Below, in pieces: positions 13,774 to 17,677 of a DNA stretch of 64,000 bases. The stretch's first letter is position 1. The number at the start of each line of letters is the position of its first letter. The stretch lies in assembly GCF_048403405.1 (NCBI RefSeq), contig NZ_CP183129.1; one strand, given 5' to 3'. A program made the translations under genes and the position numbers. The notes beneath the pieces were generated by a model. It was not told the DNA's origin. It saw only the letters and a program-made list of their open reading frames with translations, and did not search any database. This DNA comes from Escherichia coli. Its GTDB lineage: Bacteria > Pseudomonadota > Gammaproteobacteria > Enterobacterales > Enterobacteriaceae.

Positions 13774-13908
13774 ATAAAAAATGTCATACTCAAAATCATT
13801 CAAACTGTATCAAGATGGCCAGAGAATGAACCCCGATGAGCTTACTGTAGTAAGTGATTCAGGTGAAAGAATGCAGCCAACACAGAGACAGATTGAAGGA
13901 TGAAGAGT

Positions 13909-15393
13909 ATGGGTTCCACCTCGTCGCTGTATGCAGCCATTGATCTCGGTTCGAATAGTTTTCATATGCTGGTTGTGCGCGAGGTGGCTGGAAGCATCCA
14001 GACGCTGACGCGAATTAAACGCAAAGTGCGTCTGGCTGCTGGCCTGAATAGCGAAAATGCCCTCTCTAATGAAGCAATGGAGCGCGGTTGGCAATGTCTG
14101 CGCCTGTTTGCTGAACGTCTGCAAGATATCCCTCCCTCGCAAATTCGCGTTGTCGCTACGGCGACATTACGACTTGCCGTCAATGCGGGTGATTTTATTG
14201 CCAAAGCACAGGAAATCCTCGGTTGTCCGGTACAGGTGATCAGCGGTGAAGAGGAAGCACGTCTGATTTATCAGGGCGTTGCTCACACAACTGGCGGTGC
14301 CGATCAGCGCCTGGTGGTGGATATAGGCGGTGCCAGTACTGAACTGGTAACCGGCACGGGTGCACAAACCACCTCGTTGTTCAGCCTGTCGATGGGCTGT
14401 GTCACCTGGCTGGAACGCTATTTTGCCGATCGTAATCTGGGGCAGGAAAATTTTGATGCTGCAGAAAAAGCGGCACGCGAAGTGTTACGTCCGGTTGCCG
14501 ATGAATTACGGTATCACGGCTGGAAAGTGTGCGTTGGCGCTTCCGGCACCGTGCAGGCGTTACAGGAAATCATGATGGCACAGGGGATGGATGAACGCAT
14601 TACCCTGGAAAAGTTGCAGCAACTGAAACAGCGAGCCATTCATTGCGGTCGGCTGGAGGAACTGGAGATTGACGGGCTGACGCTGGAACGTGCGTTAGTG
14701 TTCCCGAGTGGTCTGGCAATCCTGATAGCCATTTTTACCGAACTGAATATTCAGTGTATGACCCTGGCGGGTGGTGCGCTGCGTGAAGGCCTGGTCTACG
14801 GCATGTTGCATCTGACCGTCGAGCAGGATATTCGCAGCCGTACGCTGCGTAATATTCAGCGCCGCTTTATGATCGATATTGATCAGGCACAGCGCGTAGC
14901 CAAAGTTGCGGCTAACTTCTTCGATCAGGTGAAAAACGAATGGCATCTTGAAGCAATAAGCCGCGATTTGCTCATCAGCGCCTGCCAGCTTCATGAAATC
15001 GGCCTGAGCGTTGACTTCAAACAAGCGCCGCAACACGCTGCTTATCTGGTACGTAATCTGGATCTTCCCGGTTTTACCCCCGCACAGAAAAAACTGCTGG
15101 CGACGCTACTGCTCAACCAGACGAATCCGGTCGATCTCTCATCGCTGCATCAGCAAAATGCCGTACCGCCGCGCGTCGCAGAACAACTCTGCCGCTTACT
15201 TCGCCTGGCCATCATTTTTGCCAGCCGTCGCCGTGACGATCTCGTGCCAGAGATGACATTACAGGCTAACCATGAACTGTTGACCTTGACGCTTCCGCAA
15301 GGTTGGCTAACCCAACATCCGCTCGGTAAAGAGATTATTGCTCAGGAAAGCCAGTGGCAGAGCTATGTCCACTGGCCGCTGGAAGTGCATTAA
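13909..15393 (+). CDS. gppA: guanosine pentaphosphate phosphohydrolase GppA
   Basis: 494 aa from ATG 13909 ([23 protein letters not shown]...); Ppx/GppA fold; an in-frame ATG at 13900 is an alternative start. Confidence 0.94.
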
Positions 15394-15402
15394 TGAGTAA
15401 GT

Positions 15403-15435
15403 GCCGGATGCGATGCTGACGCATCTTTTCCGGCC
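15403..15435. repeat. REP (repetitive extragenic palindrome) element
   Basis: gccggatgcgatgctgacgcatcttttccggc, typical GCCGGATG...CCGGC REP architecture, between convergent gppA and rep. Confidence 0.7.
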
Positions 15436-15439
15436 TTGA

Positions 15440-17461
15440 TTATTTCCCTCGTTTTGCCGCCATCATCGCTTTCAGATTCGCCAGATGGCTTTGCCCTTTC
15501 TGCATCCGTTCTTCGGCGCTGACCACTTTGCGCTCCTGTTCCCAAATCAGATCATCCTGCGGCAGCTCCAGCAAAAAGCGGCTCGGCTCCGGGCGCACCA
15601 GTTCGCCGTACTGACGGCGTTCTTTACACAGCGTAAAGGTCAATTCCTTCTGGGCGCGGGTAATGCCGACATAGGCCAGCCGCCGCTCCTCATCGATATT
15701 ATCTTCATCGATACTGCTCTGGTGCGGCAAAAACCCTTCTTCCATACCGACCATGTAGACATAAGGAAACTCCAGCCCTTTCGACGCGTGCAGAGTCATC
15801 AGTTGTACCTGATCTAACTCTTCATCACTCTCGCCGCGCTCCATCATGTCGCGCAGAGTAAAGCGCGTCACCACCTGGGTGAGCGTCATCGGCTCATCCA
15901 GTTCGCTACCTTCCAGCATCTCCGTCATCCAGCTAAACAGTTGGTTGACGTTCTTCATGCGCATTTCGGCGGCTTTCGGGCTGGGCGATGTTTCGTACAG
16001 CCAGGATTCATAATCCATGCCGTGGATCAGATCGCGTACCGCGGCAATCGGCTCCCGCTCCGCCAGACGCTGGATTTCTGCCAACCAATGAGTGAAGCGG
16101 GTCAATGCTTCATAACCACGTCCGCTAAGCGTCTGACTCAGGCCCATATCAAAGCTGGCGGTAAACATGCTTTTATTGCGCGTCATCGCCCACTCACCCA
16201 GCTTTTTCAGCGTAGCCGGGCCAATCTCTCGCTTCGGCGTGTTAACAATACGCAGAAATGCGCTGTCATCGTCCGGGTTAGTCAGCACGCGCAGATAAGC
16301 CAGCAAATCCTTGATTTCAGGACGAGAGAAAAACGACGTACCACCAGAAATTTTGTACGGGATGCGGTTTTGCATCAGGAATTTTTCAAACACCCGCGAC
16401 TGATGGTTACCGCGATAAAGAATGGCGTAATCTTTGTACTGCGTTTTATTGACGAAGTGATGCGCGATCAGCTCGCCAGTAACGCGCTCGGCTTCATGTT
16501 CCTCGTTATTCGCGCTTAAAACTTTTAGCTCTGTGCCGTAGCCCAGTTCGGAGAACAGACGCTTTTCAAAGACGTGCGGGTTATTGGCAATGAGGATGTT
16601 CGCCGCTTTCAGAATACGTCCGGAAGAGCGGTAGTTCTGCTCAAGCTTAATCACCTTCAGTGCCGGGAAATCCTGACTCAGCAGCACCAGGTTTTGCGGA
16701 CGTGCACCGCGCCAGGAGTAGATCGACTGGTCGTCATCGCCAACTACGGTAAAGCGCGCGCGGCTGCCCACCAGCAGTTTCACCAGTTCATACTGGCTGG
16801 TGTTGGTGTCCTGATACTCATCCACCAGCAGGTAGCGAATTTTGTTCTGCCAGCGCTCGCGGACTTCTTCATTGCGTTGCAGCAGTAACGTCGGCAATAA
16901 AATCAGATCATCGAAGTCGAGCACATTACAGGCTTTCAGGTGTGCATCATACAGCCCATAACAATGGGCAAAAATACGGTCCCGCTCGCCAATCGCACTG
17001 GCTGCCGCCTGGGACGGTGTTTTGAGATCGTTCTTCCAGTTAGAGATGGTCGAAATCAGCTGTTGCAGGAGGACTTTGTCATCTTCAATCAGCCCCTCGG
17101 TCAGCTCTTTAAGCAACGCCAGCTGATCGGTGTCATCAAACAGCGAAAAGTTCGCTTTCATCCCCAACGCCGCATACTCACGCTTGATGATATCCAGCCC
17201 CAGCGTGTGGAAGGTGGAAATCATCAGCCCGCGCGCCTCTTTGCGCCCCAGCGTCTGCCCGACACGCTCTTTCATCTCGCGCGCCGCCTTATTGGTAAAG
17301 GTCACCGCCGCGATATGTCGCGCCTGATAACCGCAACCGCGGATCAGATGGGCGATTTTATTGGTGATGACACGAGTTTTACCGGAACCCGCGCCTGCCA
17401 GCACCAGGCAGGGGCCGGTAACGAATTCGACAGCTTGTTGTTGGCCGGGGTTTAGACGCAT
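15440..17461 (-). CDS. rep: ATP-dependent DNA helicase Rep
   Basis: 673 aa from ATG at 17459-17461 ([31 protein letters not shown]...); UvrD/Rep SF1 motifs; track ORF has a 17-codon extension. Confidence 0.96.
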
Positions 17462-17677
17462 AGGTGTATTGCTCAATCTTCGAACGGGGGGAGGATTGTA
17501 GCAGAATCGCATTTGAATGTGACCGAGTGAAAACCGCTAACCGGATGGCTGCGGATGTTTAAATCAGAGAGGGAAGGCCGAAACCGGAGTTCATCATGAA
17601 TCCATTAGACTTAGAAAATATCGGGTCGTAACGTTGTGTTATTACTTTTTCAGAGTTTACTAAGGAGAGGTTTACTC

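What the first reader, a model, noticed from the sequence alone, without database searches (positions are those of the whole stretch)
15403..15435. REP element between convergent gppA and rep
gccggatgcg...ccggc palindromic unit with the classic REP organisation at the 3' ends of two convergent genes, where such elements typically stabilise mRNA 3' ends or act as terminators.
Basis: partly seen in the sequence, partly recalled or inferred. Interest (0 to 1): 0.1.

Follow-up and report, generated by a model that had tools for sequence, protein, structure and literature searches.

The report
Known REP hairpin between gppA, rep
The 33-base palindrome is real and is an already catalogued E. coli repetitive extragenic palindrome (REP286 of strain K-12), a single, slightly decayed copy wedged between the stop codons of gppA and rep, where it marks the stable 3' end of the gppA message; it is ordinary.

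Summary
Confirmed and ordinary. The window is E. coli. The 46-bp gap between convergent gppA (stop 15391-15393) and rep (stop 15440-15442, minus strand) holds one imperfect palindrome, 15402-15438. It folds at about -18 to -21 kcal/mol on either strand (z -4.6 to -5.7). A covariance model trained on 22 other K-12 REP units finds exactly this site in 64 kb: 33.4 bits, E about 1e-6, next best 9.8 bits. The 96 bases around it are identical in K-12, where the element is annotated as REP286 (3962701-3962736). The REP-specific insertion sequence IS1397 sits in its 4-nt loop in two strains examined. It is a divergent single unit. It scores below canonical copies (42-60 bits), has CTTG where the family has the conserved CTAC/GTAG, and has one broken outer pair. 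It is therefore probably no longer mobile. Published Term-seq puts the gpp mRNA 3' end at window 15440, just past the hairpin. A strong bicyclomycin-sensitive Rho termination region lies about 200 nt further on. The best reading is a 3'-end protective hairpin with Rho-dependent termination downstream, not a strong intrinsic terminator. REP-like hairpins occupy the same junction, in the same orientation and spacing, in many enterobacterial genera. Novelty: already known.

The parts
13900..15393 (+). gppA (gpp) coding sequence; stop codon TAA at 15391-15393
   Evidence: ORF. NCBIfam NF008260 guanosine-5'-triphosphate,3'-diphosphate diphosphatase, 977.8 bits. RefSeq annotation of matching genomes.
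15402..15438 (+). Single REP / palindromic unit, equivalent to K-12 REP286: TGCCGGATGCGATGCTGACGCATCTTTTCCGGCCTTG, written head (GCCGGATG) to tail
   Evidence: Covariance model R1, trained on 22 other K-12 REP units, gives 33.4 bits, E 8.8e-7, full model length, and is the only significant hit in 64 kb. The 96 bases around it are identical in K-12. Listed as REP286 at 3962701-3962736, which maps to window 15402-15437.
15403..15408 (+). 5' arm of the outer stem (GCCGGA); pairs with 15429-15434 (TCCGGC)
   Evidence: MFE and centroid structures on both strands.
15412..15416 (+). 5' arm of the inner stem (GATGC); pairs with 15421-15425 (GCATC). The internal loops are 15409-15411 and 15426-15428.
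   Evidence: Relative to the 37-nt REP form GACGC/GCGTC this stem carries a compensatory C-G to T-A change.
15417..15420 (+). Hairpin loop TGAC; insertion site and 4-bp target duplication of IS1397 in strains JNE25-005 and MS 16-3
   Evidence: Loci L087 and L088...GATGCTGAC|TGAACTGCACCCC...GGGGTTCAGTTCA|TGACGCATC..., annotated 'IS3-like element IS1397 family transposase'.
15435..15438 (+). Position of the family's conserved tetranucleotide CTAC (GTAG on the other strand); here it is the degenerate CTTG
   Evidence: CTAC is present in 32 of 38 K-12 reference units. The cmsearch alignment shows CUUG opposite CUAC. GTAG is required for TnpA-REP binding and cleavage (PMC3333891).
15440..15440 (+). 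Published steady-state 3' end of the gpp mRNA: 6 nt after the core stem and 2 nt after the extended stem that reaches 15438
   Evidence: PMC7815308 supp. file 1: 3' end at 3962698(-), 'primary' for gpp. Its 61-nt sequence string equals window 15390-15450. Extended stem.
15440..17461 (-). rep (DNA helicase Rep) coding sequence; stop TAA at 15442-15440. The 690-aa ORF to 17512 overshoots the annotated start by 17 codons.
   Evidence: ORF. NF008172 Rep matches residues 18-689 at 1531.9 bits. K-12 rep is 2022 nt.
15321..15426 (-). In-vitro Rho-binding (rut) peak on the rep-sense strand. It overlaps the REP by 24 bp and runs into antisense gppA.
   Evidence: bioRxiv 10.64898/2026.03.23.713779 supp. 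file 2: peak P_R10_3328, 3962712-3962817 (+), 'NusG minus', no overlapping bicyclomycin-sensitive transcript. Coordinates mapped by window = 15440 + 3962698 - x.
15640..15640 (+). Peak coordinate of a bicyclomycin-sensitive Rho termination region on the gppA-sense strand, about 200 nt past the REP and antisense to rep. The position is coarse because it rests on 800-nt windows.
   Evidence: PMC7815308 supp. file 2: 3962498(-). Reads upstream/downstream are 202/29 without BCM and 235/369 with BCM; Rho score 10.9, p 2.7e-39.

Best explanation
The element is a single, somewhat decayed member of the E. coli REP (palindromic unit) family, the one catalogued in K-12 as REP286. It fills the 46-bp gap between the stop codons of convergent gppA and rep. 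It is transcribed at the end of both mRNAs and folds into a stable two-step hairpin of about -18 to -21 kcal/mol on either strand. For gppA, RNA polymerase reads through the REP and is stopped by Rho within the next few hundred nucleotides, antisense to rep. 3'-to-5' exonucleases then trim back to the hairpin, which sets the steady-state 3' end at window 15440. The palindrome is expected to do the same for rep on the other strand, where a Rho-binding site overlaps and follows it. The identity, the fold, the gpp 3' end and the Rho dependence of read-through are shown. Exonucleolytic trimming at this particular site, any effect on rep, and any effect on translation termination are inferred. The last is suggested because the hairpin starts 9 nt (core) or 4 nt (extended stem) after the gppA stop, and 5 nt or 1 nt after the rep stop. 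The copy lacks the GTAG tetranucleotide, so it is probably an immobile relic rather than an active TnpA-REP substrate.
For: Identity. The REP covariance model was trained without this copy. It gives one hit in the window, 15402-15438, at 33.4 bits and E 8.8e-7, with the next best at 9.8 bits. The same model scores canonical K-12 REPs at 42-60 bits and noise at 15 bits or less. It also recovers the untrained REP292 at its published coordinates (coordinates). The element aligns gap-free, 29/37, with the 37-nt REP form, and two of the difference pairs are compensatory. There is a weak hit to Rfam naRNA4 (26.2 bits, E 0.011, below gathering); I recall this family as derived from REP325. The 43-nt query finds a median of 24 copies per E. 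coli genome. The element is listed as REP286. IS1397, which inserts specifically into E. coli REPs (PMC1525189), lies in its loop with a TGAC duplication in two strains. Mechanism. The fold is stable on both strands. A Term-seq primary gpp 3' end lies at window 15440. A Rho termination region lies about 200 nt downstream on the same strand, where reads in the downstream window rise from 29 to 369 with bicyclomycin. In the published model, Rho-dependent transcripts are trimmed back to a protective stem-loop, and REPs are among those stem-loops (PMC6061677). An in-vitro Rho rut peak overlaps the REP on the rep strand. No strong intrinsic terminator was called here. Constraint. The junction is intact in 5417 of 5426 complete E. 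coli genomes. Hairpins at the same junction in other genera keep 97.1% of cells paired, with compensatory changes at 6 of 12 pairs.
Against: No experiment has deleted or mutated REP286 itself. The Rho score uses 800-nt windows, so it locates termination only roughly. BCM also de-represses other antisense transcripts within rep, which could inflate the downstream count. The sequence after the hairpin on the + strand (CUUGAUUAUUU, 7 U in 12) could support some intrinsic termination, and the 3' end 6 nt after the stem is compatible with that. No 3' end for rep appears in the curated Term-seq list, and no in-vivo Rho region was called on the rep strand. [quoted passage not shown] The covariation alignment was fitted to the model's structure, which biases the pair counts towards it.
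Confidence: 0.8

Rival explanations
1. It is a bidirectional intrinsic (Rho-independent) terminator. The hairpin itself releases RNA polymerase coming from gppA and from rep, and the resemblance to REPs is secondary.
For: The hairpin is GC-rich and stable on both strands. On the + strand it is followed by a U-rich stretch (CUUGAUUAUUU), and the mapped gpp 3' end is 6 nt after the stem. The 2026 preprint reports 78 REPs inside 306 previously identified bidirectional terminators between convergent genes.
Against: With Rho inhibited, coverage downstream of the REP on the gppA strand rises from 29 to 369 reads, exceeding the upstream window at 235. The hairpin alone therefore does not stop most polymerases. 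The consensus terminator scan called nothing here. On the - strand the hairpin is followed by ACUUACUCAUUAAUG, which has no U run. I could not check whether REP286 is among the 78, because the stored supplement is cut.
Confidence: 0.15
2. Its main role is translational. Because the hairpin lies within 15 nt of both stop codons, it stalls terminating ribosomes and lowers GppA and Rep output.
For: [quoted passage not shown] 2015, as summarised in PMC12306157 section 8). Here the core stem starts 9 nt after the gppA stop and 5 nt after the rep stop. The extended stem starts after 4 nt and 1 nt. In 30 of 34 species with a junction hit, the REP starts 8-12 nt after the gppA stop.
Against: There are no data for gppA or rep. 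The primary paper could not be read and the RepRanger supplements do not list these genes. Tight spacing is also expected simply because the intergenic gap is only 46 bp. This role is compatible with the best explanation rather than exclusive of it.
Confidence: 0.25
3. It is an active mobile REP/REPIN-type element, a current substrate of the TnpA-REP (RAYT) transposase, and its location is a recent insertion.
For: It belongs to the family that TnpA-REP binds and cleaves in vitro (PMC3333891). REP presence can differ between strains, as at ilvA/ilvY in this same window.
Against: The GTAG/CTAC tetranucleotide needed for TnpA-REP binding and cleavage is CAAG/CTTG here. It is a lone unit with no inverted partner, so it is not a BIME or REPIN doublet. 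It is fixed at this site in 5417 of 5426 E. coli genomes. It is identical in two other Escherichia species representatives. REP-like hairpins are found at the same place, strand and spacing in many genera.
Confidence: 0.03
4. It acts mainly at the DNA level, as a binding site for gyrase or nucleoid proteins, or as a cruciform that relieves supercoiling between converging transcription units.
For: [quoted passage not shown] The site lies between convergent genes, where I would expect positive supercoils to accumulate (my knowledge, not tested).
Against: As I recall, not tested here, gyrase and IHF binding were described for BIME clusters with particular linkers; this is a single unit with no linker. 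The 2026 preprint found no chromosome-compaction role or REP-REP contacts for REP325 or for REPs generally (abstract and section headings). Nothing in my data addresses DNA-level binding here.
Confidence: 0.05

Closest known systems
E. coli REP / palindromic unit (PU) family, types Y and Z2; specifically K-12 REP286
   Same: The head is GCCGGATGCG and the tail is TCCGGCCT. It is an imperfect palindrome of about 35 nt with an internal mismatch loop. It is extragenic, lies at the 3' ends of convergent genes, and is multicopy. The 96 bases around it are identical in K-12 and it has the coordinates listed for REP286. The REP covariance model finds it at full length.
   Different: It scores 33.4 bits against 42-60 for canonical copies. 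It combines a Y-type outer stem (G...C) with an inner stem of Z2 length. CTTATC has become CTTTTC, which breaks the seventh outer pair. CTAC has become CTTG. It is a single unit; only 84 of 584 K-12 REPs are single occurrences (PMC3333891).
BIME (bacterial interspersed mosaic element) clusters such as REP325 (yjdM-yjdN), source of naRNA4 (Rfam RF02564)
   Same: The building block is the same. The Rfam naRNA4 model gives a weak match on 15374-15435 (26.2 bits, E 0.011). REP325 was shown to act both as a partly Rho-dependent terminator and as an mRNA stabiliser (abstract), and those are the roles inferred here.
   Different: REP325 is a tandem array of alternating Y and Z2 units (12 units seen). 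This is a single unit with no partner or linker. The Rfam score is far below the gathering threshold of 59.5 bits.
Protective 3' stem-loops of Rho-dependent transcripts (Dar and Sorek 2018)
   Same: A stable hairpin lies at the steady-state 3' end, and Rho-dependent read-through control lies downstream.
   Different: That class is defined by function, not sequence. Only 24% of such ends were associated with annotated REPs. Trimming has not been shown for gpp.
Intrinsic (Rho-independent) terminators
   Same: A GC-rich hairpin followed on one strand by a moderately U-rich stretch, with the 3' end a few nt after the stem.
   Different: There is no uninterrupted U tract. Nothing was called by the consensus scan. 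Read-through is strongly Rho-dependent.

Membership tests
E. coli REP / palindromic unit | Imperfect palindrome of 30-40 nt able to form a hairpin (PMC3333891) | tested here: met
   The unit is 37 nt, 15402-15438. The fold is -18.3 and -18.8 kcal/mol with z -4.7 and -5.2.
E. coli REP / palindromic unit | Sequence and structure similarity to other genomic REP copies (Y, Z1, Z2 consensus) | tested here: met
   Covariance model R1 was built from 22 distinct K-12 units excluding this one. It gives 33.4 bits, E 8.8e-7, over model positions 1-35 of 35, with noise at 9.8 bits or less in the window. This is at the low end of the family range of 31.7-60.6 bits. Identity to the 37-nt form is 29/37.
E. 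coli REP / palindromic unit | Non-complementary bases (mismatch or internal loop) in the stem | tested here: met
   There is a 3x3 internal loop, UGC/UUU, where canonical units have GC/UU.
E. coli REP / palindromic unit | Highly conserved GTAG tetranucleotide at the foot of the palindrome (CTAC on the strand written here) | tested here: not met
   The sequence is CTTG at 15435-38 (CAAG on the - strand). 32 of 38 K-12 reference units have CTAC; 6 others also lack it, and those 6 score 31.7-56.4 bits with the REP model. GTAG is a near-invariant feature rather than an absolute one. Its loss argues against current mobility, not against common descent.
E. coli REP / palindromic unit | High copy number in the genome | tested here: met
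   The 43-nt query finds 9-34 places per genome, median 24, in 5425 genomes. 38 regex units and 47 model hits at E below 0.001 were found in 199 kb of K-12.
E. coli REP / palindromic unit | Extragenic, typically between tandem or convergent genes | tested here: met
   It lies wholly inside the 46-bp gppA-rep gap between two stop codons.
E. coli REP / palindromic unit | Listed in the curated MG1655 REP annotation | tested here: met
   'REP286 Convergent 3962736 3962701 rep gpp' appears in supplementary file 2 of bioRxiv 10.64898/2026.03.23.713779. The RefSeq feature table available to me showed no REP or repeat features in any of the six K-12 stretches fetched, about 260 kb, even where the model found canonical REPs, so it could not be used.
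E. coli REP / palindromic unit | Recognised as a target by REP-specific insertion sequences (IS1397 inserts into E. coli REPs) | tested here: met
   IS1397 lies at the TGAC loop with a 4-bp duplication in NZ_AP045057.1. The same site is used in NZ_CP146667.1. Specificity is from PMC1525189 and the references it cites.
BIME (paired REP cluster) / REPIN doublet | [quoted passage not shown] | tested here: not met
   Only one unit is present. The 46-bp gap has no room for a partner, and there is no other hit within the window.
TnpA-REP (RAYT) substrate | Binding and cleavage by TnpA-REP, which require GTAG and the stem mismatch | not testable with these tools
   This is a biochemical property. The sequence lacks GTAG, and mutation of GTAG abolished binding and cleavage in vitro (PMC3333891), so a negative result is predicted.
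Intrinsic terminator | GC-rich hairpin immediately followed by a U tract; termination independent of Rho | tested here: not met
   The scan made no call at this site. Published BCM data show strong Rho-dependent control of read-through. Partial intrinsic activity is not excluded.

The most novel reading that the evidence does not exclude
The REP at the gppA-rep junction may be one ancient insertion inherited vertically across much of the Enterobacteriaceae (Escherichia, Citrobacter, Salmonella diarizonae, Kluyvera, Enterobacter, Lelliottia, Pseudocitrobacter and others). It keeps the same orientation, sits 8-12 nt after the gppA stop, and in several species supplies the rep stop codon from its CTAC. 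Its stem evolves by compensatory changes, and the local copy differs in sequence from genus to genus. That would make it a domesticated, selected 3'-end structure shared by two housekeeping genes. It would also be a tractable case for asking whether fixed REPs are kept by selection or homogenised by gene conversion with the genome's other copies. The E. coli copy would then be a late, GTAG-less stage of that history.
Probability: 0.45. Interest if true: 0.3.

Novelty: already known. Interest (0 to 1): 0.08.

Why it matters
It matters little by itself: this is one of several hundred catalogued REP units of E. coli, and its likely role matches what is already proposed for REPs between convergent genes. 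It is useful as a clean annotation. It explains the 46-bp gap, gives the gppA transcript a defined 3' end, and warns that antisense transcription into rep is held back by Rho rather than by this hairpin. It is also a convenient natural example of three REP properties: near-fixation within a species, use as an IS1397 target, and persistence of a hairpin at the same junction across genera.

Tried and rejected
1. My first IUPAC pattern for the REP had the wrong spacer length and matched nothing, not even the element. I replaced it with regex scans and a covariance model.
2. The RefSeq K-12 feature tables showed no REP or repeat_region features in any of the six stretches fetched, even where canonical REPs are present. 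The lack of an annotation there says nothing, and the REP286 label came from a paper's supplement instead.
3. Rfam has no REP family as such. The only match is a sub-threshold hit to naRNA4.
4. The RepRanger supplements do not list gpp or rep.
5. Dar and Sorek supplements are not held.
6. Liang et al. 2015 and Liang and Deutscher 2016 are not held, so whether gppA or rep were among their REP-regulated genes is unknown.
7. The stored supplement of the 2026 preprint is cut, and the table labels I searched for were not found. I could not check REP286 against the list of bidirectional terminators or read its conservation scores.
8. Chance palindrome was rejected on shuffles, the model score and copy number.
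9. Within-species covariation was not informative. Only three SNPs were seen and none is compensatory: G15421A breaks the loop-closing pair, C15425T gives G-U, and T15428C lies in the internal loop.
10. The 318-aa ORF inserted between gppA and rep in L024 has no Pfam match, and I dropped it. L025, L027 and L030 have gaps of similar size whose content I did not examine.

Full report
**What is there.** The window is Escherichia coli. A 1051-bp stretch around the finding is 100% identical to strain TUM14771 and 95-99% identical to nearly all of 5426 complete genomes. The + strand ORF 13900-15393 is gppA (NCBIfam equivalog, 977.8 bits). The - strand ORF ending at 15440 is rep (1531.9 bits), and rhlB lies upstream of gppA. 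This matches the K-12 order rep / gpp / rhlB. The two stop codons are 46 bp apart.

**Is it more than chance?**
- As RNA it folds on either strand into a 6-bp outer stem, a 3x3 internal loop, a 5-bp inner stem and a 4-nt loop.
- The energy is -18.3 kcal/mol (+ strand) and -18.8 (- strand) for the 33-mer. With four extra pairs from the flanks it reaches -21.3 and -21.6.
- The z-scores run from -4.6 to -5.7, and none of 200 shuffles folds as well.
- A 43-nt query around it finds a median of 24 places per E. coli genome. It therefore belongs to a dispersed repeat family.

**Family membership, tested rather than recalled.**
- I fetched 199 kb of K-12 and collected 38 REP units by a head/tail regex. 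The K-12 copy of this element was excluded, leaving 22 distinct sequences.
- I aligned these (A1) and built a covariance model with the canonical two-stem structure (R1).
- With filters off, R1 finds exactly one significant site in the 64-kb window: 15402-15438, + strand, 33.4 bits, E 8.8e-7, full model length. The next best hit scores 9.8 bits.
- In K-12 the same model scores canonical units at 42-60 bits, this element at 33.4, and noise at 15 or below. It also recovers units not in the training set, such as REP292 at its published coordinates.
- The element aligns without gaps to the 37-nt REP form at 29/37. Two of the differences are compensatory pairs: T/A to G/C in the outer stem and C/G to T/A in the inner stem.
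- It is thus a hybrid, with a Y-type outer stem and an inner stem of Z2 length.
- The only REP-related Rfam family I know of, naRNA4, gives a weak sub-threshold match (26.2 bits, E 0.011).

**It is already catalogued.** The 96 bases around the element are identical in K-12. Mapping uses window = 15440 + 3962698 - x, anchored on both stop codons. With it, the entry 'REP286, Convergent, 3962736..3962701, rep gpp' corresponds to window 15402-15437. That entry is in supplementary file 2 of bioRxiv 10.64898/2026.03.23.713779. The RefSeq feature table I could query showed no REP or repeat features in any K-12 stretch fetched, so its silence is uninformative.

**A natural assay.**
- Seven of 5424 genomes that match this junction lack an uninterrupted match.
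- In the two I examined, JNE25-005 and MS 16-3, an IS3-family IS1397 is inserted in the element. It sits in the predicted tetraloop TGAC (15417-15420), and in JNE25-005 that tetranucleotide is cleanly duplicated.
- IS1397 is known experimentally to insert specifically into E. coli REP sequences (PMC1525189 and the references it cites).
- The transposase thus treats this copy as a bona fide unit.

**How it departs from the canonical family.**
- Ton-Hoang et al. define E. coli REPs as 30-40-nt imperfect palindromes with a highly conserved GTAG at the foot. They show that GTAG and the stem mismatch are both required for TnpA-REP binding and cleavage (PMC3333891).
- Here the tetranucleotide is CTTG/CAAG instead of CTAC/GTAG. 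32 of 38 reference units keep CTAC.
- CTTATC has become CTTTTC, which breaks the seventh outer pair.
- There is no inverted partner, so this is not a BIME.
- It is the only REP in the 64 kb.
- I conclude that it is a diverged, probably immobile single unit.

**What it does.**
- *The gppA strand.* Adams et al. list a curated Term-seq 3' end at 3962698(-), classed as the primary 3' end of gpp. Its 61-nt sequence string equals window 15390-15450, which places the end at 15440. That is 6 nt past the core stem and 2 nt past the extended stem (PMC7815308 supp. 1).
- *Rho dependence.* Their DirectRNA-seq comparison with and without bicyclomycin lists a Rho termination region peaking at 3962498(-), about 200 nt further on and antisense to rep. 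Upstream/downstream reads are 202/29 without the drug and 235/369 with it. The Rho score is 10.9 and p is 2.7e-39.
- *Reading.* When Rho is blocked, transcription from gppA runs through the REP, so the hairpin is not an efficient terminator on its own. This fits the published model in which Rho terminates downstream and exonucleases trim back to a protective stem-loop, REPs included (PMC6061677).
- *The rep strand.* An in-vitro Rho-binding peak at 3962712-3962817(+) overlaps the REP by 24 bp and extends into antisense gppA. No in-vivo rep 3' end or Rho region is listed, so the role for rep is inferred by symmetry.
- *Other scans.* The simple scan finds no promoter-like site and no terminator-like site in the gap. 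The + strand tail CUUGAUUAUUU leaves some room for weak intrinsic termination.
- *Translation.* The hairpin begins 9 nt (core) or 4 nt (extended) after the gppA stop, and 5 nt or 1 nt after the rep stop. That satisfies the reported rule that REPs closer than 16 nt to a stop codon can lower translation (Liang et al. 2015, as cited in PMC12306157). I could not read the primary paper, and there are no data for these genes.

**Population and comparative context.**
- The junction is intact in 5417 of 5426 complete E. coli genomes.
- Three SNPs were seen: one breaks the loop-closing pair, one gives G-U, and one lies in the internal loop.
- A scan of one genome per species with the GppA C-terminus returned 80 enterobacterial loci, of which 71 hold both genes.
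- The E. coli-trained model hits the junction in 34 of them at E below 1. Every hit is on the gppA-sense strand, and 30 of the 34 start 8-12 nt after the gppA stop. In several species the rep stop codon overlaps the model's CTAC tail.
- The sequences differ by genus. Citrobacter has GCCGGATGGCGCTACGCTTATCCGGCCTAC and Enterobacter has GCCGGGTGGCGGCTTCGCCTTACCCGGCCTAC.
- An alignment of 24 distinct junction elements keeps 97.1% of cells paired. Compensatory changes occur at 6 of 12 pairs, in 17 cells against 3.9 +/- 1.5 in shuffles, with at most 2 in slid controls. The alignment was fitted to the model, which favours pairing.
- This suggests an old, retained hairpin at this junction. I did not test orthology against repeated insertion on a tree.

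**Verdict.** The element is a known, ordinary REP (REP286). This copy is also a degenerate single unit, not a classic BIME.

Noticed in passing
L087 4025-5506 (NZ_AP045057.1) and L088 2543-4023 (NZ_CP146667.1); insertion point is window 15417-15420: In two E. coli strains an IS1397 (IS3 family) copy of about 1.43 kb is inserted in the tetraloop of this REP. JNE25-005 shows a clean TGAC target duplication. In MS 16-3 the transposase is frameshifted and the adjacent G15421A SNP is present. Seven of 5424 genomes that match this junction lack an uninterrupted match.
   Followed up: partly
window 21118 (ilvA/ilvY junction) against L002 21877-21933 (K-12 3956877-3956933): K-12 carries a 57-bp segment containing a short REP (TGCCTGATAGCGCTTCGCTTATCAGGCCTAC; 36.3 bits with the REP model) between ilvA and ilvY. 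The segment is precisely absent from this window's strain. Here the ilvA stop TAG is followed directly by sequence that in K-12 lies inside the 3' end of ilvY, so the ilvY C-terminus must differ between the strains. This is a REP presence/absence polymorphism, in contrast to the near-fixed REP286.
   Followed up: partly
L004-L083, about 2100-2150 in each locus (gppA-rep junction in other Enterobacteriaceae): REP-like hairpins occupy the same junction in at least 34 of 71 species. All are in the same orientation, most start 8-12 nt after the gppA stop, and the sequences vary by genus. In several species (for example L012, L016, L018, L019, L020, L028) the rep stop codon overlaps the model's four-base CTAC tail; in L019 the gap ends at ...CCGGC, so the stop would be the reverse complement of the canonical CTA, which I inferred and did not read.
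   Followed up: partly
L024 2112-3068 (-); gaps of similar size in L025, L027, L030: In some Citrobacter and Superficieibacter genomes the gppA-rep gap is about 1 kb instead of the short REP-bearing gap. In L024 it holds a 318-aa ORF on the rep strand with no Pfam match.
   Followed up: partly
L050 2101-2201 (Enterobacter sp. kpr-6): Here the junction holds a different 101-nt palindromic repeat (GCCCCTCACCC...CCCTCTCCC...GGGAGAGGG...GGGGTGAGGGG, -73 kcal/mol). It resembles the element seen after ilvC in K-12 (the 3' end string at 3959467 in Adams et al.). A different repeat family fills the same niche.
   Followed up: no
window 15440-17512 (-): The mechanical ORF for rep is 690 aa, but the Rep family model and the K-12 annotation start at residue 18, which puts the start codon at 17461. 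The upstream 17 codons are probably not translated.
   Followed up: no
window 15350-15376 (+), inside the 3' end of gppA: A perfect 8-bp inverted repeat, GCCAGTGG / CCACTGGC, with an 11-nt spacer lies within the last 45 nt of the gppA coding sequence, just upstream of the REP.
   Followed up: no
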